DNA from: Escherichia coli
GTDB lineage: Bacteria; Pseudomonadota; Gammaproteobacteria; Enterobacterales; Enterobacteriaceae
Assembly (NCBI RefSeq): GCF_044324875.1
Contig: NZ_CP172185.1
DNA length: 64,000 bases
Strand: one strand, 5' to 3'
Shown here: positions 33,797 to 64,000 of the stretch, one piece after another
Position numbering within the stretch: position 1 is the first letter of the stretch
Layout of the letters: each line of letters starts with the position of its first letter
Notes under the pieces: model-generated
The model's database searches: none
Seen by the model: the letters and a program-made list of their open reading frames with translations, nothing else
Told to the model about the DNA's origin: nothing
Position numbers and translations under genes: made by a program

Positions 33797-35032
33797 TTAC
33801 AACGTTACCGGGTGTTCTTTCTCTCCCTTCTTAAACTTCACTTCTCCGAGATCAATACAACCCACCGGGCAGACGTGACCACAAAGCAGGCAACCAACAC
33901 ATTTCTCGGTATTACAATGCGGTGTACGGGTTTTCTCGCTCCATTCCATCGCCTGGTGACCGCCGTCGTAACAGGAAATATAACAGCGTCCACAGCCAAC
34001 ACATTTATCGAGGTTGATGTTGGGATAGACAATATAACTGCGGTCTAAATCTTCCGCCGGAACAATATTGTGATTCGCCAGACCTACCATATCCTGCAAC
34101 GAATCAAATCCCTGATCGGCGAGATAATGCGACAACCCGCTCGCCATATCTTCTACGATGCGATAGCCGTACTGCATAATGCCGGTGGTCACCTGCAACG
34201 TCGCTGCACCGAGCAATAAAAACTCTGCCGCATCTTCCCAGGTTTCGATACCGCCGATACCGCTGATCGGGAAATCGCGCAGCTCTGGATGGGTGCGCAT
34301 TTGCTGAATAAAGCGCAGGGCGATCGGTTTTACCGCTTTACCGGAATATCCGGAAATACTCGATTTACCGTTAACGATCGGCATACCGATTTTCTGATTA
34401 AGATCGATATTGGTGATGGATTTAACGGTGTTAATCGCCGCAATGCCATCTGCGCCGCCGCGCTTCGCCGCCAGCGCCACTTCGCACATATCACCGATAT
34501 TCGGCGTCATCTTCGCCAGCATCGGCAGCGTAGAACCGCGTTTCACTGCCCGACAATATTTTTCGACCAGCTCCGGGCTTTGCCCGACATCGCTACCCAT
34601 CGCATGAGAAGTCATTTGCGGACAGGAGAAGTTACACTCGATCATATCCGCGCCAGCTTCTTGCACCAGGCGCGCCAGCTCCTCCCATTGCTGCTCATTT
34701 TCCCCCATGATCGAAGCGATCAATACTTTGTCCGGGTAATCTTCCTTCAGCCGACGCAGGGCGGCCAGATTCTCTTCCAACGGATGTTCAGCAATCTGCT
34801 CCATATTTTTGAAGCCGATAAAACCGGTATCTTCTTTCACCAGATGATCAAAACGCGGCGAGACTTCGTTGGCGATAAAAAAGCCGATCGTTTTAAACAC
34901 CACGCCGCCCCAACCTGTGTCGTAGGCTTTGGCACACATCTCATAGCAGTTGCCTACAGGCGAAGAAGAGAGGCAGAACGGATTGGGAAACTTCACGCCG
35001 CAAAAAGTAATCGAAAGATCTTTCGTTAACAT
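33797..35032 (-). CDS. preA: NAD-dependent dihydropyrimidine dehydrogenase subunit (DHOD-like, C-terminal 4Fe-4S)
   Basis: Start at [12 protein letters not shown] (411 aa). Confidence 0.88.
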
Positions 35033-36264
35033 GAGCAAGCTCCCTCTAAATAGTGATGAATCGCCTCGGCGGCTTCTTTCCCGGTTTTCACGGCATAGAC
35101 CACGGTTTTGTCACCCTCAACAATATCGCCAGCAGCAAAGACTTGCGGATCGCGGGTCTGGTAATTTTGTGTATTGATGGTGTTACGCTGCGGCTCTAAC
35201 TCCGCAAAGGCATCCAGTCTGGCATGCTGACCGACGGCGAGAATAATTTTATCTGCCGTCATCGTCAGTTCGCCCGGTAACCGTACATGCTTAAACGTGA
35301 CTTTATTGCCTTCCACGGCTACTGGCGTAAATCCATCGATGATCGAAACGCCCAGCTCCCGGGCGCTGGCAAACTCTTTTTCGCTTGCCGGAAACTCATC
35401 TAACTCTTCACGCGCTACGCAAGTTACCGCCTGACAACCGAGAACTTTCAGCGTGCTGGCTACGTCCATCGCGACATCACCGCCGCCGATAATTAATGCG
35501 CTTTGTGGAATGCTGATATCGCCTTGCGCCTGTCGTGCACGTTGCAAGAAGTCGACGGCAATCTCAACGTCGCTATGCTCAAACAGTGGTAGCCCGGAAC
35601 CGCTAGATAACCCCACGGTGACCAGTACCGCGCGGTTTTCCGCTTTCAGCTGCTCCAGGGTGAGTGTTTTACCGATTTCGTTATTGCACTTAATGGTCAC
35701 GCCCATTTTTTCAATACGGGCGATTTCTGCATCCAGTACTGATTGCGGTAACCGGAATTGCGGAATGCCGTTACGCAACCAGCCACCGGGTTGTGCTTCT
35801 TTCTCATAGATCGTGACGTCATAACCCTGGTTTGTCAGCGTCACACTGGCCTGCAATCCGGCAGGACCTGCGCCAATAATGGCGACTTTGCCGAGCGTTT
35901 TAGTACCGGGCTGATAAATTTCCATCCCAGTTTGTTGTTCAAAATCAGTAACAAAACGCTGTAAGCGGCCGATATCAATGGGAGTATCAACACCGGCACG
36001 GGTACAACCGCTTTGGCATAATTTCTCCGTCGGGCACACTCTGGCACAAACGGCACCGAGGGCATTATTTTCACGAATTGTCTCGGCAGCGCCTTTAAAA
36101 TTACGAAAGTAGATTGAGCGAATAAATTTCCCCGGATCGGTCTGTGCCGGGCAAGCCTGACTACAGGGAGCGTCGTGACATAATAAGCAGCGAGAGGCTT
36201 CTTTAATCGCCAGTAACGGTGTAAAAGCCGGAGTGAGTTCATCCAGATAATTTTGTTGCGGCAT
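35026..36264 (-). CDS. preT: Dihydropyrimidine dehydrogenase subunit (FAD/NAD oxidoreductase)
   Basis: 412 aa, GAGPAG dinucleotide-binding motif. Confidence 0.88.
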
Positions 36265-54053: not shown

Positions 54054-54785
54054 ATGAAGATGTTGCGCGATCCGCTGTTCTGGCTCATTGCTCTGTTTGT
54101 GGCGCTGATTTTCTGGCTGCCTTACAGCCAGCCGCTGTTTGCCGCCTTGTTCCCACAACTGCCACGACCCGTTTATCAGCAAGAAAGTTTTGCAGTTCTG
54201 GCACTGGCTCATTTCTGGCTGGTGGGAATTTCGAGTTTGTTTGCGGTGATCATTGGTACTGGTGCCGGAATTGCTGTCACTCGCCCTTGGGGCGCGGAAT
54301 TTCGCCCACTGGTGGAAACTATTGCCGCCGTTGGACAGACTTTTCCGCCCGTCGCGGTGCTGGCGATTGCCGTTCCGGTGATCGGCTTTGGTCTGCAACC
54401 CGCGATTATCGCCTTGATCCTTTACGGCGTGCTGCCCGTCCTGCAGGCAACACTTGCCGGGCTGGGAGCGATTGATGCCAGCGTGACAGAAGTTGCGAAA
54501 GGTATGGGAATGAGCCGTGGTCAGCGACTGCGTAAGGTCGAGCTACCGCTGGCGGCTCCGGTGATTCTGGCGGGCGTGCGAACTTCGGTGATTATCAACA
54601 TTGGTACGGCGACGATCGCCTCAACGGTAGGGGCCAGCACGCTGGGTACGCCGATCATCATCGGGCTTAGCGGATTTAATACCGCGTATGTGATCCAGGG
54701 GGCGTTACTGGTGGCACTGGCGGCGATCATTGCAGACCGCCTGTTTGAAAGGCTGGTGCAGGCGCTTAGCCAGCACGCAAAATAA
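54054..54785 (+). CDS. yehW: ABC transporter permease
   Basis: 243 aa multi-TM. Confidence 0.88.
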
Positions 54786-54873
54786 AGGTATAACCTGCGA
54801 GCATGACGCCACCAATTCCGCCTAACGCCATAAACAGGAACAGGGCGATGACCCCAATTTTAGCTATGCGCAT
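54766..54873 (-). CDS. yohO: Small membrane protein YohO (35 aa)
   Basis: Minus-strand [38 protein letters not shown]; 3' end overlaps yehW 3' end antisense; below ORF-track cutoff. Confidence 0.65.
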
Positions 54874-54932
54874 AATGCACTCCTTATGTTAACGAAAGGA
54901 TTGTACAGTAAAGCGCATTTGTTAACGAATCA

Positions 54933-55616
54933 TTAAATGCCGAGTGGGAAAATATCATGGCCTTGTTCCTGCCAACTGGTAAGTTGCTGCTGTTGGGCGG
55001 AGGTTCGATTTTCACCGCACCACACCAGCAATGTACGGCCTTCGAACAGTTCAGGGCGTAGTTGATTGAGCGAGTGGGCGAGGACATCAATGCGCCATCC
55101 TTGTTGACTGGCAATCCAGCCCTCCAGCCATAGACGGGTGGTATCGTGAATATTCCAGCCAACCACCAGCGCATCTTTACCCTGTTTTTTACGTGCCGAA
55201 GCCAGGCAAATGGCGATGTAGTTGATCAGTACGCCGTCAAGGATCGCCAGCAGCGCCTGGAGGGTCGGTTGTTGGCACTGAAGTCGTCGGCGCAGAGGAA
55301 TAAACAGATGCGTGGTGAGTGTCTGGGCAGGGTAATCCTGACCGCGCTCTTTGATCCACGTTCGCAGGCTATGCAGATTGCCGCTTTGCAGGTAAGTCAG
55401 TAATGTTTCTTGCTGATCGCGCCAGCCGTTCTGCACATCAACATTTTCATTACTGAGCAGCATTTTAACTTTGCTGACCTGCACGCCGTTGTCGATCCAG
55501 CGTTTGATCTCGCGGATCCGGTCAATATCGGCATCGTTGAACAGCCGATGGCCGCCGTCTGTCCGTTGCGGTTTCAGCAATCCGTAACGCCTCTGCCACG
55601 CGCGTAACGTGACAGG
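54933..55616 (-). pseudogene. mlrA: MerR-family regulator MlrA (YehV) lacking its 5' end, interrupted by prophage insertion
   Basis: Reading frame matches MlrA from ...PVTLRAWQRRYGLLKPQRTDGGHRLF to C-terminus FPLGI; upstream in frame the expected N-terminus (MALYTIGEVALLCDIN) is absent and a stop lies at 55650-55652; no ATG start. Confidence 0.8.
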
Positions 55617-55654
55617 GATTAAGGGTAAACTAACTGATTTTACAAGTTTTTATT

Positions 55655-56941
55655 TTACCCCACTTTCTTATGGGGCATACATGGGACACTTTCAGATAGT
55701 CTTTTGTTAAGGAGTTCTATCTGTTCGTGATTGTTGTCTTTCATCCATGCTCCGTAAACATTGAATACCATTTGTGCGTTTGTGTGGCCCATCTGGCTTG
55801 CGATAAAACTAGGATTAGCTCCAGCGGCAAGTGACCAGCATGCATAAGTATGCCTGGATTGGTACGATTTTCTGTGTCTCAGACCTGCGCGTTTTAAGAT
55901 ACTTGTCCATGACTCCCTGATGGAGTCAACCTTATAGTGCGGTCCGGAAAACTGCCGCTGTTTTATTACCTGAGGACTAAAAACAAAAGTGCATTTATGC
56001 ACAGTACTTCTCCCATATTCCCTCTGCTTTACCTCTACAGAATGTTGCTTTCCAAGCATGGTCATTTCCGCCTGACTTTTAAGAGCATCAATAGCTGGTT
56101 GAACCAGATGAATTGTCCTTCCGGTGCCAGCATCGGTTTTTGGTGGAGTGAATTCGCCAAGTTTTGTATAATTCCTACGGATGGTTATAGTCCTTGCTTT
56201 AAGGTCTATATCTTCCCATGCCAGCGATACCAACTCCCCGTGACGAATACCCGTGTATACAGCGAGAATCCACAGGTTTTTTGTTTGTTGATGACGGCAA
56301 GCCTCAATAAAACGAATAAATTCGTCACGGGTGAGAGGATCTGGTTTTACCTTGGACTTTTTTAAGGGAGCCAGACCGTTAAATGGGTTTCCTGAGGTAT
56401 AACCATTATCTGTTGCAAATTGAAACATTCCAGCTATGGTTGTCATATAGTAGTTTACCGTGACCACTGAGCGCCCTTTTATGGAAGAAGTCTTTCCATT
56501 AGAAAGCTTTTGGTAACCGGTCAACAAATCTCTCCTTACGAAAAGTAAATCCTCTTTTGTTATGGATGAAACCAGTTTTTTTTCACCTAACATTGGTAAC
56601 ATGTTTTTAATTACTGACTGGTAACGGTTAAGTGCATTCGCACAAATCTCAATTTTCTTAAGGTCCAACCATTTTTCCGAAAGTGCCTTAACGGTTATCT
56701 CTCTTTTTCCCAGACCAAAGTGTTTCAGGTTAGGGGAATTAGGGAACTGCGCGGCGTAGTCGAAACTCCCCATTCTGATTGCAAAACAAACGGAAGTGCG
56801 AAGTTCACCTGCGATCTTCCGGTTTTTGGCGGTGTCAGGAACACCGAGGTTTTCTCTGACACGTTTGCCATTATAGTGAAACCATATACGGAGTGATCCT
56901 CCATGGTTTTCAACGCCTGTCGGGTATGATACGTTACTCAT
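55655..56941 (-). CDS. int: Phage tyrosine integrase
   Basis: 428 aa; conserved boxes TGIRHGELVSL and HRKSYQSRHTYACW ... VYGAW; SD gggagg; 3' end faces the att junction. Confidence 0.88.
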   Translation of the reverse strand: MSNVSYPTGVENHGGSLRIWFHYNGKRVRENLGVPDTAKNRKIAGELRTSVCFAIRMGSFDYAAQFPNSPNLKHFGLGKREITVKALSEKWLDLKKIEICANALNRYQSVIKNMLPMLGEKKLVSSITKEDLLFVRRDLLTGYQKLSNGKTSSIKGRSVVTVNYYMTTIAGMFQFATDNGYTSGNPFNGLAPLKKSKVKPDPLTRDEFIRFIEACRHQQTKNLWILAVYTGIRHGELVSLAWEDIDLKARTITIRRNYTKLGEFTPPKTDAGTGRTIHLVQPAIDALKSQAEMTMLGKQHSVEVKQREYGRSTVHKCTFVFSPQVIKQRQFSGPHYKVDSIRESWTSILKRAGLRHRKSYQSRHTYACWSLAAGANPSFIASQMGHTNAQMVFNVYGAWMKDNNHEQIELLNKRLSESVPCMPHKKVG

Positions 56942-56974
56942 TAAACCTCCCAGACGTCCAGGAGCATTAACAGG

Positions 56975-57229
56975 TTAACCGGAACTTGCATTTTTGGCAC
57001 CTGGTTGTTTCTGGTTTTCGATCCATCGCATAATTTCTTCGATGTTGTACAGGCATTCACTGTAGTGCCCCGGATCACCTTCTACAGCGTAATGGCGGTA
57101 TTCTTTTCCCTGCATCCATGACTTTCTTCTTGCCCGCTCAATGGTGCCAGGCTTTAGCCCTGTTGATGCAATGAGGACTCTCTCCGTACACCATTTGCTG
57201 GGGGTTATCTGATAGATGATTGTCTGCAT
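56975..57229 (-). CDS. Putative excisionase / small DNA-binding protein
   Basis: 84 aa immediately upstream of int in the same operon, basic, SD gagg; function inferred from position only. Confidence 0.45.
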   Translation of the reverse strand: MQTIIYQITPSKWCTERVLIASTGLKPGTIERARRKSWMQGKEYRHYAVEGDPGHYSECLYNIEEIMRWIENQKQPGAKNASSG

Positions 57230-57247
57230 GCCAACCTCATAAAATTT

Positions 57248-57382
57248 TCATCCACGGCAGTGGCACCACACATCAAACATTCGCTTCACAACTTCACGAC
57301 AGTAGAAGCCGTCAACATCTCGCGTCAGGTCATAGCGATTGCCATAACGCTGGCGCACCCATAGTTCAAATGCTTTATTCAT
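57248..57382 (-). CDS. Candidate small Cys/His-containing protein (45 aa)
   Basis: MNKAFELWVRQRYGNRYDLTRDVDGFYCREVVKRMFDVWCHCRG; starts 3 nt after the stop of the upstream gene; not in ORF track. Confidence 0.3.
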   Translation of the reverse strand: MNKAFELWVRQRYGNRYDLTRDVDGFYCREVVKRMFDVWCHCRG

Positions 57383-57385
57383 TCT

Positions 57386-57628
57386 TTACTTCCTTTTCAT
57401 GGCCCGTAATTTTTTCAGATGAGCTTCCTGCTCTGTTTCTGCCAGAATTTGTCGGTATTCCTGGTGATCGAGCCGTTCAAACAGTTCATTAAAATCGTTT
57501 ATTTTTACCGACTGTGTTCTCCCATCCATTCTTCTGTACAACACAGTGTTGTTTATGCAGCGAATAATTTTTACCGGGTAGCCAGCACTATCGGTGTATA
57601 TCTGACCACGTTGAATCAGAGCGAACAT
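57386..57628 (-). CDS. Hypothetical phage protein (80 aa)
   Basis: Track ORF, same orientation as the operon. Confidence 0.5.
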   Translation of the reverse strand: MFALIQRGQIYTDSAGYPVKIIRCINNTVLYRRMDGRTQSVKINDFNELFERLDHQEYRQILAETEQEAHLKKLRAMKRK

Positions 57629-57715
57629 TCCTTTATCCCCAGCGGAAAAGCGAATACAGAATAAATGCCACCGCTATTGCAACTCCTACTGCGGTGAATG
57701 CTTCAGGCCAATTCA

Positions 57716-58345
57716 TCATTTCACCTCCACGCCGATCCCGGCAATAACACAATCCCGTTTGATAGCTTCTTTCACCCAGCGTTTATAGGTTTCCGGATGG
57801 AATTTTGCGTTTTTTCCGGTACCGCTCCAGAATGCCTTTGATGTGATATCGGGCAGGGTGATGGTCAGGCCTTTCTTCTTGCTGCCTTCAGAACTTTTGC
57901 AAAAAGTTAATGCGTCGCGTAGTTCTTTAACACACGCATAGTTTTCTGCTTTCTCTGGGTCGCCGGTACGGTGTTCAGCTTCTTGTCTGCACCATTTGAT
58001 GACTTTCTCTGCGGCTGCGTGGAGACGCTGACGTTGCCAGTCGTATGTGTCGACCAGCCCATATGCGTGATTCTTTGCTTTGCTTAATTCAGCGACGAGG
58101 CATTCGGAATCAATCAAATTATTTTCCGCAGCGGACAGCGCTTGTTTAAGTCGCTCGATTTCTTGAGCCATGTAGTAGCCGGTTTTACTCCAGGTATCGA
58201 CATCATCGTCACTCATATCCAGTTCCATCGACGCCATCAGAACGGCGTCGTGATAGTTCTGGCTACCGCAGGTGATTGCAACGACGTAGGAGTCACTATT
58301 TTCTCGTTTATGGATAAGTACAACTGGGTTTTTGATCTTGCTCAT
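57716..58345 (-). CDS. Hypothetical phage protein (209 aa)
   Basis: Track ORF; no recognisable motif. Confidence 0.55.
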   Translation of the reverse strand: MSKIKNPVVLIHKRENSDSYVVAITCGSQNYHDAVLMASMELDMSDDDVDTWSKTGYYMAQEIERLKQALSAAENNLIDSECLVAELSKAKNHAYGLVDTYDWQRQRLHAAAEKVIKWCRQEAEHRTGDPEKAENYACVKELRDALTFCKSSEGSKKKGLTITLPDITSKAFWSGTGKNAKFHPETYKRWVKEAIKRDCVIAGIGVEVK

Positions 58346-58353
58346 TCCGCACC

Positions 58354-58449
58354 TCAGTAATTCATTAAAAATTTATATTCAATCAGCGCACCGAAAACGA
58401 CGGACGCCAGCAGCAGACCAAACAGCATGGACAGGAGGAATGACTTCAT
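58354..58449 (-). CDS. Candidate small hydrophobic protein (31 aa)
   Basis: MKSFLLSMLFGLLLASVVFGALIEYKFLMNY; ATGA start/stop overlap with the upstream 74-aa gene; not in ORF track. Confidence 0.3.
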   Translation of the reverse strand: MKSFLLSMLFGLLLASVVFGALIEYKFLMNY

Positions 58450-58670
58450 CGCTTTGCCTCCCGCTGTACGATTTTGTAGGCGCGCAGGATGTCGCGTGTT
58501 TTTCCTGACAACGATGACTTAACCCAGAAAAAGCCGCTGCGGTTTTCATAGATCCCCTGTACATTAAACAGCACCGCATCAACAACGCGGTTATGCTTTT
58601 GCAATGTCAGGCAGGAACTGGTGATCACGATGTTCGCTACGGCGCCATAGTCCTTGTATTGGATTTTCAT
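58446..58670 (-). CDS. Hypothetical phage protein (74 aa)
   Basis: Track ORF; start abuts the stop of the 112-aa gene. Confidence 0.5.
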   Translation of the reverse strand: MKIQYKDYGAVANIVITSSCLTLQKHNRVVDAVLFNVQGIYENRSGFFWVKSSLSGKTRDILRAYKIVQREAKR

Positions 58671-59009
58671 TTACATGTTCCCCATAACGGTATCGCTCAT
58701 GTCGTTAACCATGCTCTGCCAGATTTCTTTGCCGCTTTGCGTCAGCTCGTTTCCACGAACGCATTTGCTTAACAGCTGAATACCAACGGCTTCCCATTGG
58801 GGGTAATTTTCTTTGATAGCCTTCAGAGCATAACCATCGATTAAATCCCTGATACCTTTAACCCCACCGATGATGTTTACTCGTATGGATTGCCCATTGA
58901 CATTAATCATGAAATGATCTCCGTTGGTGGCGGATATGTGGTTGTGCAGTGCAGCCGCATACTGATTTGCCAGCGCATTGAGGCGGAAATTTTGTGTAAT
59001 GAGTGGCAT
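58671..59009 (-). CDS. Hypothetical phage protein (112 aa)
   Basis: Track ORF; TAATG overlap with the upstream ORF6N gene. Confidence 0.5.
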   Translation of the reverse strand: MPLITQNFRLNALANQYAAALHNHISATNGDHFMINVNGQSIRVNIIGGVKGIRDLIDGYALKAIKENYPQWEAVGIQLLSKCVRGNELTQSGKEIWQSMVNDMSDTVMGNM

Positions 59010-59755
59010 TATTTACCCTCCCAACCAATCACCTGAAACAGCCCCATTTTCGGGTGATACCAGCGGGTACCGCGTGGCTCTGCCTCTGACATCATCTGAT
59101 GAAATGCTTTCATGAACGGCTCAAGCTCCACGATAGCCCGGCGAGAAAGAAGACCATCTGGCGTCATAAATTCGTGCGTATCGGTTGGGATGCTGTAGGC
59201 ATTGACCAGATTGCGGCACTTGGCATCAGTCATTCCGCTTTTGGCGACCACCTGGCGATAACCGACATATCCGGCGCGCATATTTCCGCGTTTGATGTTC
59301 TCCACAGCTTTGGTGACCGTTTCGATCTTCTCTTCAACATGACTCAGGCGCTTCTGCTGGCGAACGGCATCGGCGGCCATTGCAGCGATCATCTCCATTT
59401 CCGTCAGCGGCGCGTGAGTTCGGAAATAGCTGTTAACCAGTTCGCGCTGAACCTGCCATGCAAGAGTATCGTTAAAAGGCTTCGTCAACATCAGGTAACC
59501 AGACTCGAAAAGAATGATCCCTTTGGCAGTTCGCGCGGCAAAGGCATCAGAAAGTGACTCCGTACGTATTACGTCCGCAGTCATTTCAAGAAAATCCACC
59601 CCTTCGATAAAGTGAGAACGGTTGCGGTTAAACGCAGCACGGGCGGTACCTTCCGGGCGCTGGTGGACGTCATCAATCATTGCAAATGTCACAACACGCT
59701 GACCGCGATATTCGATTACCGGAAACTGTTTGTTGTTGATGGTTACAGTATTCAT
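59009..59755 (-). CDS. ORF6N/KilA-N domain protein (antirepressor-like)
   Basis: Start at MNTVTINNKQFPVIEYRGQRVVTF..IDDVHQRPEGTA (SD ggag 7 nt upstream); N-terminal pattern typical of ORF6N/KilA-N DNA-binding domain. Confidence 0.6.
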   Translation of the reverse strand: MNTVTINNKQFPVIEYRGQRVVTFAMIDDVHQRPEGTARAAFNRNRSHFIEGVDFLEMTADVIRTESLSDAFAARTAKGIILFESGYLMLTKPFNDTLAWQVQRELVNSYFRTHAPLTEMEMIAAMAADAVRQQKRLSHVEEKIETVTKAVENIKRGNMRAGYVGYRQVVAKSGMTDAKCRNLVNAYSIPTDTHEFMTPDGLLSRRAIVELEPFMKAFHQMMSEAEPRGTRWYHPKMGLFQVIGWEGK

Positions 59756-59798
59756 TTTTATCTCCAGACAGCCCGGCGTGTAATACCGGGCATATGTA

Positions 59799-60626
59799 TT
59801 ACTTAACCTGAATAAATGGTGTGTTGGCACCGCTGGTCATGTATTGCGGCAGTGTACCGTTCCACTTGTTGATGGCTTCCAGCTCCATAACGTTTGGGTT
59901 CTGGCGCAGAGCTTCACCGCGTAAACGAATAGCATCGGCTTCGGCCTGGGCTTTTGTGCGAATCGCATCTGCCTGTCCGGCAGCTTCCGCGCGCAACATG
60001 TTGGCTTCCGCTTCGCGCTGTTTTACTTCCTGCTCGCGTTGCAGGGTTTTCTGGTTGGCCGTGACTTTGGCATTAATGCTGTCGATAACAGTAGGCGGGT
60101 ACTCCGGCTTACCCACATATGAGAGGCTCATTACCTGAATACCGATGGGCGTCATTTCTTCCTGAATGTCTTTAAGAGCTGCATCCAGCAGCTCAGACTT
60201 GCCGCCGTCGATAAATTTGTCGGTGGTCATTTTGCTGGCCAGTCGGTTGAGTGCGTCGGCTATCTTCTGGCGCAGGTCGGTGTCGGTAATGTCGTCCACG
60301 CCTTTGCGGTAGGTCTGAAAGACTGTGGTAACTTTGGATGGATCAACTTTGTAGGCCACGCCGATGTGATAGCCGATGGTTGTACCGTCACTCATCTGGA
60401 AACTGAATGGATCATCGTAGGTCTTCATCTGCTTAAAGGTCGGGAAGATGTAAACCTCAGTGTTCCATCCCGTCCAGTAGCGCCCAACACCGACCACTTC
60501 ACCGACGCCTTTATCGTCGCCCAGTTTGTTTACTTTGATGCCCACATTACCAGGCTCAACGCGATCGCAACCGACAAGGCCAATGGTCGGCAGAACAATG
60601 GCTAAAGCAAAAAGTAATTTTTTCAT
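59799..60626 (-). CDS. SPFH/band-7 (prohibitin/HflKC-like) lipoprotein
   Basis: 275 aa; signal peptide with lipobox LVGC; SPFH-type core and C-terminal coiled-coil QREQEVKQREAEANMLRAEAAGQADAIRTKAQAEADAIR. Confidence 0.7.
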   Translation of the reverse strand: MKKLLFALAIVLPTIGLVGCDRVEPGNVGIKVNKLGDDKGVGEVVGVGRYWTGWNTEVYIFPTFKQMKTYDDPFSFQMSDGTTIGYHIGVAYKVDPSKVTTVFQTYRKGVDDITDTDLRQKIADALNRLASKMTTDKFIDGGKSELLDAALKDIQEEMTPIGIQVMSLSYVGKPEYPPTVIDSINAKVTANQKTLQREQEVKQREAEANMLRAEAAGQADAIRTKAQAEADAIRLRGEALRQNPNVMELEAINKWNGTLPQYMTSGANTPFIQVK

Positions 60627-60811
60627 CTTTTATCCTTAGAAAAAGAAAGACCCTTATAAATGGCATAAATGCAGGGCGGGGTCAGACACGCCAGAGCAAA
60701 GCCAGAAATCACTGCTATCGTATCCTTCATGGATATAAGGAACGGAACGAGTAATCCGTAAATGCATGCGATAATTGCCAGTAAAATTACTATTGTGAAA
60801 TACAGTCTCAT
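60623..60811 (-). CDS. Small two-TM membrane protein coupled to the SPFH gene
   Basis: 62 aa MRLYFTIVILLAIIACIYGLLVPFLISMKDTIAVISGFALACL...; 4-nt start/stop overlap with the SPFH gene. Confidence 0.55.
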   Translation of the reverse strand: MRLYFTIVILLAIIACIYGLLVPFLISMKDTIAVISGFALACLTPPCIYAIYKGLSFSKDKR

Positions 60812-60987
60812 TGGTCTGTGGTATCCCGATATTTTTAACCGACTGACAGCGCAATAAAGAGAATAATGATTTCTGTTAGTGTCAGCACTGTGGCAAGGAT
60901 TAAAATCAGTTTTACTCTGTTTAATTCACGGTTGCTTTTCATATAAACGGTTAGTAAAAAACGGAAGAATTATTTTCTTCTTAATAT

Positions 60988-61569
60988 TTAATGTGTCACT
61001 GGCGCTTCTGGCATACCATGAGTATTCAGGTCGTGAATCATTTCATCCAGAAGGAGTTCAAGCCCTTCGCGCCCCATAGCAGAGAGAATGAAACCATTAT
61101 CAGGATCTGCGATGAGCATTTTTTGATAGAGAAACAGAACTCGCCCCATGCCTTCAGTTTCGCCATATTTTTCAATAAATCCCCATTCGACATGGTTTTG
61201 CAGGGCAATGCGAAGTGGTCCTGGGTATATACTTATGCAACCATGTTTCCCCTTGTAAATAACTGCGCGATCTGTCGTCCCGTTATCGTTAGGGATATCA
61301 ATAGTGCCGTTCTTGTCTTCCTCTTCACTGATAAACTTCATCACATACAGCCAGCGCCACTGAGCAACCTTCAGATCGACTGAAAATCTTCCCAGCAATC
61401 CGGCATCATCAGCTTCGGCAAGACATTGCATGATTCTTAAACCGTGCCAGTATGGATTATCGAATTCGCCATCATTAAGCCGCTGTACGGCCTGAATATA
61501 ATTAATGGTTGTATTACCAATTTTTATGCCATGTGGCGTTACTTCTGGTCGGAACTCTGAATGATTCAT
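60988..61569 (-). CDS. Hypothetical phage protein (193 aa from MNHSEF; track ORF extends to 61626)
   Basis: ATGA overlap with the upstream 67-aa gene if it starts at 61569. Confidence 0.5.
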   Translation of the reverse strand: MNHSEFRPEVTPHGIKIGNTTINYIQAVQRLNDGEFDNPYWHGLRIMQCLAEADDAGLLGRFSVDLKVAQWRWLYVMKFISEEEDKNGTIDIPNDNGTTDRAVIYKGKHGCISIYPGPLRIALQNHVEWGFIEKYGETEGMGRVLFLYQKMLIADPDNGFILSAMGREGLELLLDEMIHDLNTHGMPEAPVTH

Positions 61570-61769
61570 AATATTTGCTCCTTTGCTGGTGGAATAATCG
61601 TGTAGCCAGCTCTTTTTGCCATCCACAGAAATGTATCCATGCAGCCAACGAATTCATTATCCAGCAGATGTTTTGAGTAAATTACTTCACCATTTTCAAT
61701 GGTTAGCAACACTCTTACTTTTTTATGTGTTATGTTTTGTTGTTTTTCTTCCATTGACTTATCTCCCAT
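61566..61769 (-). CDS. Hypothetical phage protein (67 aa)
   Basis: Track ORF; alternative start MEEKQQ at 61754. Confidence 0.45.
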   Translation of the reverse strand: MGDKSMEEKQQNITHKKVRVLLTIENGEVIYSKHLLDNEFVGCMDTFLWMAKRAGYTIIPPAKEQIL

Positions 61770-61950
61770 ATGCTTTGCGCAAATACAGGTTGGCTATATG
61801 AAGATAAGAATCTCCATGTTGTGCAATGAGGCAGGCAGTTTTATACGATGCCTTATGTTTCAGGAAAGTCATAACATAATCTCCTGCGAATAAAGGTTGC
61901 AACAATCCCCGGCGATAAAACCGTAATAAACATTCAGGGAATATTTATTG

Positions 61951-62316
61951 TTATTGCGCTAATTCTTTTTCGGCAGCAGATTTTGCATATTCACATGCAA
62001 AATTCAGAATTTCGCTGCCAAGTGTTTTTGTTTCGTGATTACTGGACATATGTAATACCTGTGTTGCATGCAATAAATGATAAACATTTACCGCAAATGA
62101 GTCCGGCTCCAGACAAATGCCTTCATAATCATCTTGTTGTGAGGTTGTTTCTGTCATTGCTCCTGAAGTGCATGCGAGCCTGTTTTTGACAATTCTCTTT
62201 CCTCTAATCACTATATCGGCAACATCTATTGCCTTTACAACCTCCGGGAGAAGTTCCGGGTTTGTATAATCAAAGTCATCAACATGGAGAACAGTTATGT
62301 TTTCGAACTTTTTCAT
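61951..62316 (-). CDS. Hypothetical phage protein (121 aa)
   Basis: Track ORF with SD gaggaag upstream. Confidence 0.5.
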   Translation of the reverse strand: MKKFENITVLHVDDFDYTNPELLPEVVKAIDVADIVIRGKRIVKNRLACTSGAMTETTSQQDDYEGICLEPDSFAVNVYHLLHATQVLHMSSNHETKTLGSEILNFACEYAKSAAEKELAQ

Positions 62317-62444
62317 GGCTTCCTCAGCTGACTTATATGTTCTGCTATATAGCGAGTCTCAGAAGTGTTTTCATATTGAGACTGTTTCCGCAATGATTGA
62401 TAAAAATGTTCGCATGTACCTTGAGGGGCGAAGCGGCGATTATG

Positions 62445-62903
62445 TCACCATTGGTATTGGTTCTTCCGTAGAAGAGCTTCGCGAGATAAGGAGCAAACTT
62501 GTTGAGATGCGTCATGGTGTTGCTGCTCCTCACTTTTTGGTTGCTCCGGAGGAGTAACCTCGCCAGTTAACAGCCACATCGGATCACAGCCAAGAACATT
62601 AGCCAGAGGGATAATCTGGCTTGCCAGAGGCTCCCTCTTGCCACTTTCCCACTGGATGATAATTTCTTCATCGAGATTGAGCAGCCTGGCGAGTTCGGCG
62701 GTTGTTAAGCCGCAGGCTTCGCGTTGGGTGTCAATAGAGCGATATTTTTTGTTTCCAGAAGGTAACAGAACACGTTTTATCTGTTGGATTTTTTCTATTG
62801 CAACTTCAATGAGTATGTTGCGGTTTCTTTCTGATGCAGACTCCATGCTTTCATGAAGTAGTGATTCTGCTTGTTCGATAAGAATCAGTTGTAAAGAAGA
62901 CAT
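62445..62903 (-). CDS. HTH (XRE/Cro-type) domain protein immediately downstream of cI
   Basis: 152 aa; central segment LTTAELARLLNLDEEIIIQWESGKREPLASQIIPLANVLGCDPMWLLTG is a typical XRE helix-turn-helix; SD gagg. Confidence 0.6.
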   Translation of the reverse strand: MSSLQLILIEQAESLLHESMESASERNRNILIEVAIEKIQQIKRVLLPSGNKKYRSIDTQREACGLTTAELARLLNLDEEIIIQWESGKREPLASQIIPLANVLGCDPMWLLTGEVTPPEQPKSEEQQHHDASQQVCSLSREALLRKNQYQW

Positions 62904-62911
62904 AAGAAAAC

Positions 62912-62946
62912 CTCGTAACCAACATTTCGAAATCTAGGTTACGAGT
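62912..62946. promoter_or_regulatory. Palindrome between cI and the downstream HTH gene; candidate operator or terminator
   Basis: ctcgtaacc-N17-ggttacgag (9-bp arms); spacer contains gaaatctaggtt, which recurs in the cI-cro intergenic region. Confidence 0.4.
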
Positions 62947-62988
62947 GAGTAATGTAGGTGTCAAGTGTAATTGATAATTTTTTGTTGA

Positions 62989-63648
62989 TTAAATTTGCAT
63001 ACGCATCTCAACGACAACACCAAGAATTTCACAATCGCCATTGATAGGGATCAGTGGATAGCGTGGGTTTAGTGGTTTTAAGAAACATTGTCCTGCGTCT
63101 TCAATGTACTGTTTGAGGGTTGCTTCACCGGAATTTTTGAGTCTAGCGACAACATATTTTCCTGAAAAAACTTCTTTGTCAGGGTTTACAAGAATGTTCA
63201 TGCCTTCAAAGATTGAGAACTCCCCATTCTGTGACGTCATTGAGTCACCTTTTACCTCCAGCCAGAATCCGTTATCTCCTGCATATATATCGCTACCGAT
63301 CCAATCTTCTGGATAAGGTATGTAATCTTCGCAGTTCCAAGGGCCGGCGCTCACCCATGTTAATTTTGGGTATCTGTAACGCGTTGGAGAAGCTGGTTTG
63401 GGGTTTCGAACGTTTTGAATACTATCTGTAGGTGAAGGTTCGCTACCATCAAGGAGCCATTTAGGTGAGCATTTTAATGCATCTGCGATCCTGAATAGGT
63501 TTGACGATCTTGTGTCTTGTGAGTCTCCTAACTCTATTTTGCTGATTGTTACACGTGAGACACCCGTCAATTTTGCCAGGTCATCTTGTGACATGCCTAG
63601 CTGAACTCTACGCATTAACAATCTCTGTCCAAAACTATCGTGTTCCAT
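62989..63648 (-). CDS. cI: CI-type phage repressor (HTH plus LexA-like S24 peptidase domain)
   Basis: 219 aa; N-terminal HTH MSQDDLAKLTGVSRVTISKIELG; C-terminal domain with GDSM serine motif and downstream lysine. Confidence 0.8.
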   Translation of the reverse strand: MEHDSFGQRLLMRRVQLGMSQDDLAKLTGVSRVTISKIELGDSQDTRSSNLFRIADALKCSPKWLLDGSEPSPTDSIQNVRNPKPASPTRYRYPKLTWVSAGPWNCEDYIPYPEDWIGSDIYAGDNGFWLEVKGDSMTSQNGEFSIFEGMNILVNPDKEVFSGKYVVARLKNSGEATLKQYIEDAGQCFLKPLNPRYPLIPINGDCEILGVVVEMRMQI

Positions 63649-63661
63649 CTTTTCTCTCCGT

Positions 63662-63746
63662 TGTCGAAATGATTTTTTCGAAACAAATATATCAAAAAAT
63701 ATTGAAATCTAGGTTTCGCAAAACTAAGATTGTTCGAAACAAACGT
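63662..63746. promoter_or_regulatory. Divergent cI/cro promoter-operator region with repeated TTCGAAAC-type sites
   Basis: tgtcgaaat, ttttcgaaacaaa, gaaatctaggtttcgcaaaac, tgttcgaaacaaacg between the divergent starts. Confidence 0.5.
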
Positions 63747-63758
63747 GTCGAGGTCGAT

Positions 63759-63968
63759 ATGGATTTGTATGAAATTCTAAAAAACATATTTGGTTCGAAT
63801 GTTGAGATCGGTCGCCATTTTCCCCGAAAGGGAAGGGCTAGAACTGGACAGGCTGTAGGAAAGTGGAAAAAACAAGGGGTACCGGAGGATGTAGCGATTC
63901 TTTGCCATCTGGATCCCGCAATTCCTTATCAGCATCCGCCTCTCACGAACGGTAGTAATGGCGTATGA
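63759..63968 (+). CDS. cro: Cro-like small DNA-binding regulator
   Basis: 69 aa MDLYEILKNIFGSNVEIGRHFPRKGRARTGQAVGKWKK...; divergent from cI, SD gagg; start chosen at internal ATG of a longer track ORF. Confidence 0.55.
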   Translation: MDLYEILKNIFGSNVEIGRHFPRKGRARTGQAVGKWKKQGVPEDVAILCHLDPAIPYQHPPLTNGSNGV

Positions 63969-64000
63969 AATCTCTCCGGAGGGCTGTATGTCCCAGAGTT

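What the first reader, a model, noticed from the sequence alone, without database searches (positions are those of the whole stretch)
55617..64000. Compact prophage left arm without recognisable exo/bet/gam or N genes
Only about 6 kb separates int from cI, and it is filled with small genes of unknown function rather than recombination or antitermination functions. Positions next to int/xis and next to cI are where temperate phages usually carry accessory genes (superinfection exclusion, anti-defence, host takeover).
Basis: inference. Interest (0 to 1): 0.5.

Follow-up and report, generated by a model that had tools for sequence, protein, structure and literature searches.

The report
Compact prophage early-left operon at mlrA
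This is the left end of an ordinary temperate prophage inserted in the E. coli mlrA gene; its short, repressor-controlled left operon lacks the lambda recombination and N genes, as do phage phiP27 and many other sequenced relatives, so it is a known design and not a surprise.

Summary
Integrase (55655-56941) and a CI-type repressor (62989-63648) lie 6,047 bp apart. The gap holds about 16 tightly packed genes. None matches exo, bet, gam, N or any other recombinase or antiterminator, and no boxA-like site is present.

The compactness is not unusual. The segment is a mosaic: 99% identical to an E. coli LH50-c prophage at mlrA, and 96% identical to genes L05-L09 of the functional Stx2e phage phiP27. 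Phages PhiR49_2 and Stx2_14040 and prophages in Salmonella and Citrobacter have the same layout. A public assembly that is 100% identical shows the right arm: a helicase-primase replication module, RusA and Q.

Operator-like repeats cluster at two places only, between cI and cro and just downstream of cI. The arm therefore reads as a CI-repressed early-left operon.

Recognisable products are an XRE-type regulator, an ORF6N DNA-binding protein, an inner-membrane SPFH lipoprotein with a small membrane partner, a DUF4222 protein and a protein with Ea22-like domain layout. The rest have no known function, and none matches a known defence family.

The one odd detail is a conserved 86-codon gene on the opposite strand, between the regulator and the 121-aa gene.

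Verdict: a real feature, a new member of a known kind, of low interest.

The parts
55617..55654 (.). attL junction. Homology to intact K-12 mlrA stops at about 55622, 43-44 nt into the ORF. mlrA loses its first ~14 codons.
   Evidence: blastn against MG1655 mlrA; translations
55655..56941 (-). Tyrosine integrase, 428 aa (IntR-type; Arm-DNA-bind_2 + Phage_integrase)
   Evidence: phrog_1 E=4.5e-83; precomputed Pfam in the identical locus L015
56975..57229 (-). Excisionase, 84 aa (XisR / DUF1233 type)
   Evidence: phrog_539 E=1.6e-37; RefSeq name xisR in LH50-c
57248..57382 (-). 44-aa protein, function unknown (phrog_3871)
57386..57628 (-). DUF4222 protein, 80 aa, function unknown
   Evidence: phrog_285; PF13973 in L015
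57716..58345 (-). 209-aa protein in three parts: conserved N domain, variable-length coiled-coil middle, conserved C domain. The layout resembles Ea22 and one source names a homologue Ead/Ea22-like, but there is no detectable similarity to lambda Ea22.
   Evidence: phrog_492; homologue names; alignment A3; negative BLASTP and hhalign against lambda Ea22
58446..58670 (-). 74-aa protein, function unknown (phrog_1001)
58671..59009 (-). 112-aa protein, function unknown (phrog_37628); no Pfam hit
59009..59755 (-). ORF6N-domain DNA-binding protein, 248 aa (PHROGs label it 'anti-repressor')
   Evidence: phrog_1726 E=1.6e-69; PF10543 in L015; start taken from RefSeq and L015 gene calls
59799..60626 (-). 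SPFH/Band-7 lipoprotein, 275 aa. Lipobox LVGC with Asp at +2, so predicted to be retained in the inner membrane facing the periplasm.
   Evidence: Pfam Band_7 E=8e-31; phrog_200; weak HflK/HflC hits; signal sequence read
60623..60811 (-). 62-aa two-helix membrane protein. Its stop overlaps the SPFH start (ATGA), suggesting translational coupling.
   Evidence: phrog_1130 'membrane protein'; sequence
60988..61569 (-). 193-aa protein of a family seen in Enterobacterales, several members labelled 'prophage protein' (phiP27 L06; phrog_1515). Confident model with no solved-structure relative; function unknown.
61566..61769 (-). 62-67-aa protein (phiP27 L07; phrog_340). Probable start at 61754. Its stop overlaps the start of the 193-aa gene.
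61951..62316 (-). 121-aa protein (phiP27 L08; phrog_5451). Narrow family: 21 cluster representatives among 1.84 billion proteins.
62297..62557 (+). orf86, a conserved gene on the opposite strand with a GGAG-N7-ATG ribosome site and a TATAAT at 62265-62270. It overlaps the 121-aa gene start by 20 nt and the HTH gene end by 113 nt. Function unknown.
   Evidence: phrog_6104 E=9.6e-50; homologues in four genera; third-position-biased substitutions; model with beta-beta-alpha-beta-alpha core; no PDB match
62445..62903 (-). XRE-type HTH regulator, 152 aa (phiP27 L10 family), first gene of the leftward operon
   Evidence: phrog_4739 and phrog_4836; DicA-like hit below cut-off; HTH_3 in L015
62913..62964 (-). 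OL/PL-like control region. Two overlapping 18-bp operator-like sites (62913-62930, 62927-62944) and, on the minus strand, a TTGACA -35 at 62964-62959 with a TAACCT -10 at 62941-62936, 17 nt away.
   Evidence: promoter read from the sequence (inference)
62989..63648 (-). CI-type repressor, 219 aa (HTH + S24 self-cleaving peptidase domain)
   Evidence: phrog_4 E=1.6e-55; LexA and UmuD hits; Peptidase_S24 in L015; 50% identical to phiP27 CI
63664..63751 (.). OR-like control region. Three to four operator-like sites (63664-81, 63678-95, 63702-19, 63734-51) and a rightward promoter-like site at 63702-63730.
63759..63968 (+). Cro-position gene, 69 aa (phrog_4749), with GAGG 5 nt upstream of the ATG

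Best explanation
Window 55617-64000 is the integrase-proximal end of a mosaic temperate prophage sitting in the 5' end of mlrA (yehV).

Layout. From the immunity region leftward the order is: a self-cleaving CI repressor; a PL-like promoter overlapped by two CI operator-like sites; then one gene-dense leftward operon that ends in xis and int. The operon order is HTH regulator, 121-aa, about 37-aa, 62-aa, 193-aa, small membrane peptides, SPFH lipoprotein, ORF6N protein, 112-aa, 74-aa, 209-aa, DUF4222, 44-aa, xis, int.

Predicted behaviour (inferred). In the lysogen CI shuts the operon. After SOS-induced CI cleavage, transcription runs through to xis and int without an N/nut system, because the genes abut or overlap and no strong terminator was found. 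The phage carries no Red system. In an identical copy of the prophage the early region from int to Q encodes no recombination function other than RusA. It replicates with a helicase-primase module and uses only a Q-type antiterminator for late genes.

Context. This short layout, free of N and Red, is the normal design of the phiP27-like and 'Eru'-type lineage. It is neither a deletion product nor a special cargo island.

What is shown and what is inferred. Shown: gene content, homologies, operator clustering, the mosaic map, and the identity of the right arm. Inferred: operator function, promoter use, readthrough, and reliance on host recombination.
For: Gene content and the lack of Red/N.

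Mosaic map: 55400-60802 is 99% identical to the LH50-c prophage at mlrA; 59786-62403 is 96% identical to phiP27 L05-L09.

The same layout in other phages and prophages:
- phiP27, a complete phage record annotated with attL, attR and cos, with no exo, bet, gam or N annotated anywhere in its genome.
- PhiR49_2.
- Stx2_14040, where int to cI is only 4.1 kb.
- Salmonella and Citrobacter prophages.

Operators: 6 of the 7 window-wide matches to TCGAAA-N6-TTTCGA fall at 62913-62944 and 63664-63751.

Right arm: an assembly 100% identical over 55400-64000 carries cro-like, HNH, DEAD helicase, primase, RusA and Q genes.

Literature: Eru1 Stx phages lack N, CII and CIII (PMC8044961), and Stx-phage replication and regulatory regions are highly diverse (PMC8951638).

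Public occurrence: all ten proteins looked up occur exactly in public data, each on tens to hundreds of contigs.
Against: - The late region of this prophage was not seen, so viability is unproven.
- The LH50-c copy carries two pseudogenes in the arm.
- The PL -10 hexamer is weak (TAACCT, 3 of 6), and the consensus scan did not list the promoter.
- A weak AT-rich hairpin followed by a U run lies after the 121-aa gene and could attenuate readthrough (z = -1.4, not significant).
- About eight ORFs have no assigned function, so a non-homologous recombination or antitermination factor cannot be formally excluded.
Confidence: 0.75

Rival explanations
1. The left arm is mainly a cargo island of accessory genes (superinfection exclusion, anti-defence, host takeover) that has displaced recombination and antitermination genes.
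For: - The SPFH-lipoprotein/62-aa cassette is present in some relatives and absent in others.
- PHROGs files the 62-aa protein under 'moron, auxiliary metabolic gene and host takeover'.
- orf86 lies on the opposite strand with its own ribosome site and a TATAAT.
- An AT-rich block of 37-41% GC spans 60500-62300.
- Most of the small ORFs have no known function.
Against: - No PADLOC hit beyond generic HTH models.
- No PHROG anti-defence family matched.
- The cI-adjacent trio is conserved next to repressors of different domain make-up and length, which suggests a core role.
- The arm lies behind operator sites, so most of it should be silent in the lysogen.
- The orf86 -10 element is not conserved in Salmonella or Citrobacter.
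Confidence: 0.25
2. The prophage is a decaying remnant, and its recombination and N genes were lost by deletion after integration.
For: The window ends at 64000, so the late genes were not seen. The closely related LH50-c copy has a truncated and a frameshifted gene in the arm.
Against: - Every ORF listed in the parts table reads as an intact frame, and several overlap by 4 nt (ATGA), suggesting translational coupling.
- The same layout occurs in the complete phage records phiP27, PhiR49_2 and Stx2_14040.
- The identical arm occurs on many contigs.
- The right arm of the identical copy is intact through Q.
Confidence: 0.1
3. One or more of the unannotated ORFs are non-homologous functional substitutes for Red or N. 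For example, the first-gene HTH protein might control leftward elongation, or the 193-aa or 209-aa protein might act in recombination.
For: - The HTH gene occupies the position that N holds in lambda.
- Eight ORFs have no assignment.
Against: - Foldseek against AFDB50 returned mostly uncharacterised or 'prophage' proteins, with no recombination or antitermination annotation.
- No PHROG recombination or antitermination family matched.
- No boxA is present, and the leader before the first gene is too short to hold a nut or put element.
- The HTH protein is an ordinary XRE-type DNA binder.
Confidence: 0.1

Closest known systems
Enterobacteria phage phiP27 (Stx2e phage, NC_003356), left arm genes L01-L11
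   Same: The order is the same: int, xis, small ORFs, SPFH lipoprotein (L05), L06, L07, L08, HTH (L10), CI (L11), then a divergent cro-position gene. Window 59786-62403 is 96% identical in DNA. No exo, bet, gam or N is annotated anywhere in the 42.6-kb genome.
   Different: int is only 72% identical and targets a different site. CI is 50% identical, so the immunity differs. phiP27 lacks the 209-aa, 112-aa, 74-aa and ORF6N genes found here. orf86 is cut to 36 codons in phiP27. phiP27 replicates with DnaC/DnaB-type genes, whereas the identical copy of this prophage uses a DEAD helicase and a primase.
Non-lambdoid 'Eru'-type Stx phages (Llarena 2021, PMC8044961; PMC8951638), e.g. Stx2_14040 (Eru7)
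   Same: These phages have lambda-like gene order but no O/P, using helicase, primase or other replication genes instead. Eru1 phages lack N, CII and CIII (PMC8044961). Stx2_14040 shares intR, xis, the SPFH gene and the HTH regulator at about 84% DNA identity, and its int-to-cI arm is only 4.1 kb.
   Different: Eru types are defined by the two genes next to cI on the cro side, which lie outside the window. In the identical copy no stx gene appears within 3.3 kb downstream of Q; a porin gene lies there instead. This is therefore probably not a Stx phage.
Phage lambda early-left (PL) operon
   Same: int and xis sit at the far end of a leftward operon that starts just downstream of cI behind OL operators. 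The repressor is an S24 self-cleaving CI with a multi-site OR and a divergent cro. An opposite-strand gene lies next to the first PL gene: sieB in lambda, orf86 here.
   Different: There is no N/nutL, exo, bet, gam, kil, cIII, ral or rexAB. The arm is 6.0 kb, against 8.3 kb in lambda. The first gene is an XRE-type HTH protein. orf86 shows no similarity to SieB.
E. coli HflK/HflC (SPFH modulators of the FtsH protease)
   Same: The 275-aa protein has a full Band_7 domain (E=8e-31), and its best solved-structure sequence hits are HflK. Its predicted location, periplasmic and anchored to the inner membrane, matches the HflK/C SPFH domains (inference from the lipobox and Asp+2).
   Different: It is anchored by a lipid and not by a transmembrane helix. 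NCBIfam scores are far below the HflK and HflC cut-offs: 24-26 bits against 134-159. It is encoded singly, next to a 62-aa membrane protein. No functional data were found in the papers searched.

Membership tests
Lambdoid prophage immunity / early-left region | Tyrosine integrase and excisionase at the att-proximal end, transcribed leftward | tested here: met
   phrog_1 E=4.5e-83 and phrog_539 E=1.6e-37; attL at about 55620
Lambdoid prophage immunity / early-left region | HTH + S24 self-cleaving CI repressor, divergent cro-position gene, multi-site operator between them | tested here: met
   phrog_4 and LexA/UmuD hits; Peptidase_S24 in the identical L015; 3-4 operator-like sites at 63664-63751. 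Binding was not tested.
Lambdoid prophage immunity / early-left region | OL operators and a PL promoter directly downstream of cI, heading the leftward operon | tested here: inconclusive
   Two operator-like sites lie at 62913-62944. A perfect TTGACA -35 is present, but the -10 is weak (TAACCT). This was read and was not listed by the consensus scan.
Lambdoid prophage immunity / early-left region | N antiterminator with nutL (boxA/boxB) | tested here: not met
   No PHROG, NCBIfam or Pfam N-like hit. No boxA within 55617-64000 at up to 1 mismatch. The leader before the first gene is too short to hold a nut site.
Lambdoid prophage immunity / early-left region | Red recombination genes exo, bet, gam (or Erf/RecT/RecE equivalents) in the left arm | tested here: not met
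   No hit in PHROGs, NCBIfam or Pfam. The largest unknown (193 aa) has no nuclease or annealing-protein fold match.
Lambdoid prophage immunity / early-left region | Q-type late antiterminator in the right arm | tested here: met
   Outside the window, but present in the 100% identical locus L015: Phage_antitermQ, phrog_79 E=1.4e-51
phiP27-like / Eru-type non-classical lambdoid phages | Homologues of phiP27 L05-L10 in the same order between xis and cI | tested here: met
   96% DNA identity over 59786-62403 and 85% over 62563-62730; annotation
phiP27-like / Eru-type non-classical lambdoid phages | Replication genes other than lambda O/P on the cro side of cI | tested here: met
   DEAD helicase (phrog_16) and primase (phrog_510) in the identical L015. 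These lie outside the window.
phiP27-like / Eru-type non-classical lambdoid phages | Shiga toxin genes downstream of Q | tested here: not met
   In L015 the 3.3 kb downstream of Q holds a porin gene and small ORFs with no toxin domain. Sequence beyond that was not seen.
Ea22 / Ead family (lambda exo-xis region) | Three-part layout: N domain, central coiled coil of variable length, conserved C domain | tested here: met
   Alignment A3 of 17 homologues. The layout of lambda Ea22 is taken from PMC10834534.
Ea22 / Ead family (lambda exo-xis region) | Detectable sequence similarity to lambda Ea22 | tested here: not met
   BLASTP E=3.7; hhalign probability 0.5%; no NCBIfam hit. Only a UniRef name on an 82%-identical homologue points to this family.
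SPFH / Band-7 proteins (HflK/C-like) | Band_7 (PF01145) domain | tested here: met
   E=8e-31 over residues 22-208
SPFH / Band-7 proteins (HflK/C-like) | Equivalence to HflK or HflC (curated NCBIfam cut-off) | tested here: not met
   26.0 and 23.6 bits, against cut-offs of 134.4 and 159.4
SPFH / Band-7 proteins (HflK/C-like) | Physical or functional interaction with FtsH | not testable with these tools
   Needs pull-down or genetic assays
Known anti-phage defence systems (PADLOC-DB v2) | Match to any defence-protein model beyond a generic HTH | tested here: not met
   The only hits are HTH-domain hits of the two XRE proteins to RmrA, CapH and control-protein models, plus one Cas11a hit at E=0.04
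SieB-type exclusion gene (lambda/P22) | Opposite-strand gene next to the first PL gene | tested here: met
   orf86 at 62297-62557 (+), compared with lambda sieB at 34482-35036 (+) next to N
SieB-type exclusion gene (lambda/P22) | Sequence similarity to SieB | tested here: not met
   hhalign probability 0.04%. orf86 is 86 aa and modelled as a compact beta-beta-alpha-beta-alpha domain.

The most novel reading that the evidence does not exclude
The evidence does not exclude two untested ideas.

(a) The trio next to the repressor (L10-type HTH, antisense-embedded orf86, L08-type 121-aa protein) could be an undescribed developmental-switch or exclusion module. orf86 would be expressed from the opposite strand in the lysogen, as sieB is in lambda and P22 (the lysogen expression and antisense regulation of sieB are recalled from the literature, not checked here), and would be silenced by convergent PL transcription on induction.

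(b) The inner-membrane SPFH lipoprotein with its 62-aa partner could be a phage-made HflK/C mimic that tunes FtsH in a phage that has no cIII.
Probability: 0.15. Interest if true: 0.55.

Novelty: new member of a known kind. Interest (0 to 1): 0.2.

Why it matters
It matters little as it stands. The result tells annotators that a short int-to-cI arm without Red or N genes signals a phiP27-like or Eru-type prophage, and is not evidence of decay or of a special cargo island.

Two things may be worth a bench test, because both are widespread in Escherichia prophages, including Stx phages, and have no assigned function:
- orf86, a conserved and inconsistently annotated opposite-strand gene next to the immunity region.
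- The phage SPFH lipoprotein with its small membrane partner.

Insertion into mlrA is expected to affect curli and biofilm regulation. That effect is known from the literature for prophages at yehV; I state it from memory and did not check it here.

Tried and rejected
- **orf86 as a GIY-YIG nuclease.** The model has a beta-beta-alpha-beta-alpha core, and three GIY-YIG entries appeared in the Foldseek PDB list, but at probability about 0.1. hhalign against E. coli YhbQ gave nothing and Pfam gave nothing. Rejected.
- **orf86 as SieB.** No similarity.
- **LexA box upstream of orf86** (a Tum-like antirepressor idea). None within the prophage apart from three chance-level 1-mismatch sites elsewhere.
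- **The 209-aa protein as a true Ea22 homologue.** Rejected on sequence; only the domain layout agrees.
- **Sequence searches of solved structures** for the 209-, 193/212-, 121-, 112-, 86- and 273-aa products. Nothing informative.
- **Rfam at E<=1 over 54500-64000.** Nothing.
- **boxA search.** No site in the prophage.
- **Terminator after the 121-aa gene.** An AT-rich hairpin, z = -1.4, not significant.
- **Conservation of the orf86 -10 element.** Not conserved in Salmonella or Citrobacter; the test is confounded by coding on the other strand.
- **Literature on phage SPFH proteins.** Only speculative remarks were found.

Full report
**Observation**

The window upstream of 55600 is the E. coli osmF-yehYXW-yohO-mlrA region. 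Homology to intact K-12 mlrA stops at about 55622, 43-44 nt into the ORF.

On the minus strand lie a 428-aa tyrosine integrase (55655-56941), an excisionase (56975-57229) and, 6,047 bp from the integrase start, a 219-aa HTH + S24 repressor (62989-63648). A 69-aa cro-position gene (63759-63968) diverges from the repressor gene. In lambda the same distance is 8.3 kb.

**Content of the 6 kb**

I searched twenty candidate products against PHROGs, NCBIfam and PADLOC, and six against Pfam.

Products with a recognisable domain or layout:
- A DUF4222 protein.
- An ORF6N DNA-binding protein that PHROGs labels 'anti-repressor'.
- An SPFH/Band-7 lipoprotein (Band_7 E=8e-31), translationally coupled to a 62-aa two-helix membrane protein.
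- An XRE-type HTH regulator as the first gene after cI.
- A 209-aa protein with a conserved N domain, a variable coiled-coil middle and a conserved C domain. The layout recalls Ea22 (PMC10834534), and one source names a homologue Ead/Ea22-like. It shows no detectable similarity to lambda Ea22.

The 44-, 74-, 112-, 193-, 62/67- and 121-aa products fall in PHROG families of unknown function.

Nothing matched exo, bet, gam, Erf/RecT-type annealing proteins, Kil, cIII or N. No boxA-like site lies in the prophage, and Rfam found nothing. PADLOC returned only generic HTH-domain hits. The factual observation is confirmed.

**Is the layout unusual? No.**

The segment is a mosaic:
- 55400-60802 is 99% identical to a prophage at mlrA in E. 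coli LH50-c.
- 59786-62403 is 96% identical to genes L05-L09 of phiP27.
- About 160 bp at 62403-62563 matches neither.
- The immunity region (62700-64000) is only about 87% identical to seven complete E. coli genomes, one of which carries it in a Stx2b prophage.

phiP27 is a complete 42.6-kb phage record annotated with attL, attR and cos, and no Red or N gene is annotated anywhere in it. Phage PhiR49_2 has the same arm. Stx2_14040, the reference for the widespread 'Eru7' type, has an arm of only 4.1 kb. Salmonella and Citrobacter prophages show the same design. The literature already records that Eru1 Stx phages lack N, CII and CIII, and that Stx-phage regulatory and replication regions are very diverse (PMC8044961, PMC8951638).

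All ten proteins looked up occur exactly in public data, each on tens to hundreds of contigs. One assembly, L015, is 100% identical over 55400-64000. Its right arm holds a cro-like gene, a phrog_852 protein, an HNH endonuclease, a DEAD helicase, a primase, a phrog_6204 protein, RusA and Q, followed by a porin gene. No toxin gene lies within 3.3 kb of Q. RusA is thus the only recombination-related function and Q the only antiterminator between int and Q.

**How it most likely works**

An 18-bp motif, TCGAAA-N6-TTTCGA, matches seven times in the 64-kb window at up to two mismatches. Six of those matches sit in two places: 62913-62944, just downstream of cI, and 63664-63751, between cI and the cro-position gene.

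At the first place the minus strand carries a perfect TTGACA, 17 nt from a weak TAACCT -10 that the operator-like sites overlap (read). I therefore read the arm as a CI-repressed early-left operon.

The genes abut or overlap: ATGA overlaps join the 62-aa gene to the SPFH gene and the 62/67-aa gene to the 193-aa gene. No convincing terminator was found on that strand, so readthrough to xis and int would not need an N-type factor. Operator binding, promoter use and readthrough are all inferences.

**The unknown genes**

- **121-aa protein.** The family is tiny: 21 cluster representatives among 1.84 billion proteins.
- **orf86 (62297-62557, plus strand).** This is the most curious detail. It has a GGAG-N7-ATG ribosome site and a TATAAT 27 nt upstream of the start codon. 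It is 86-88 aa in Escherichia, Salmonella and Citrobacter. Its substitutions are biased to third codon positions: 34 against 20 and 14 in one comparison, and 45 against 21 and 18 in another. Its conserved core covers a stretch that no minus-strand gene occupies. It overlaps the start of the 121-aa gene by 20 nt and the end of the HTH gene by 113 nt. Several annotations miss it, and it is truncated in phiP27. The HTH/orf86/121-aa trio stays together next to repressors of different domain make-up and length. Its position and orientation recall sieB next to N in lambda, but there is no sequence similarity. Its small alpha/beta model has no significant PDB match. A GIY-YIG lead was tested and dropped.

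**The SPFH lipoprotein**

The signal sequence ends in the lipobox LVGC, and Asp follows the lipidated Cys. By the established Lol-avoidance rule this predicts retention in the inner membrane facing the periplasm, which is where the SPFH domains of HflK and HflC sit. Its best solved-structure sequence hits are HflK, but NCBIfam scores are far below the HflK and HflC cut-offs.

The cassette is present here and in phiP27, LH50-c and Stx2_14040, and absent from L003, L007 and L010. It is therefore the best candidate for a facultative, accessory module. The papers I found that mention phage SPFH proteins offer only speculation.

**Verdict**

The 'accessory gene' interpretation is only partly supported. 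The compact arm is the ordinary design of a known lineage, so this is a new mosaic member of a known kind and of low interest.

The residual novelty lies in two untested ideas: that orf86 and its neighbours form an undescribed switch or exclusion module, and that the SPFH lipoprotein acts on FtsH/HflKC. I put about 0.15 on either proving true and novel.

Noticed in passing
window 62297-62557 (+): A conserved 86-codon gene lies antisense inside the leftward operon. It overlaps the start of the 121-aa gene by 20 nt and the end of the HTH gene by 113 nt. Its substitutions are biased to third codon positions. It is missing from several annotations and is truncated in phiP27.
   Followed up: yes
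window 59799-60811 (-): An SPFH/Band-7 lipoprotein (lipobox LVGC, Asp at +2, so predicted inner-membrane retention) is translationally coupled to a 62-aa two-helix membrane protein. The cassette is present in some relatives and absent in others. SPFH and ORF6N genes are about 51% GC, next to a block of 37-41% GC at 60500-62300.
   Followed up: partly
window 54933-55622 (-): The prophage insertion removes the first ~14 codons of mlrA (MALYTIGEVALLCD, part of the MerR-type HTH). RefSeq nevertheless annotates a 228-aa 'MlrA' in the LH50-c equivalent without a pseudogene flag.
   Followed up: partly
window 62913-62944 and 63664-63751: Six of the seven window-wide matches to the 18-bp palindrome-like motif TCGAAA-N6-TTTCGA cluster at these two sites, which flank the repressor gene. 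They are presumed OL and OR operators of an uncommon immunity type: only 7 of 5,426 complete E. coli genomes match it, at about 87% identity.
   Followed up: yes
window 59786-60802: The stretch shared by both mosaic parents (LH50-c-like on the left, phiP27-like on the right) is exactly the SPFH/62-aa cassette. The recombination that built this arm may therefore have happened inside that cassette.
   Followed up: no
L015 1-8904 (continuation of the window beyond 64000, reverse orientation): In a 100% identical copy the right arm runs cro-like, phrog_852, HNH endonuclease, DEAD helicase, primase, phrog_6204, RusA and Q, then a porin gene. No Shiga toxin gene lies within 3.3 kb of Q.
   Followed up: partly
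window 61759-61905 (-): The 181-nt 'gap' between the 121-aa and 62/67-aa genes holds a 37-codon ORF with an AGGAG ribosome site. It is annotated as a 37-aa protein in PhiR49_2 and L015. An AT-rich hairpin followed by a U run lies just after the 121-aa gene.
   Followed up: partly
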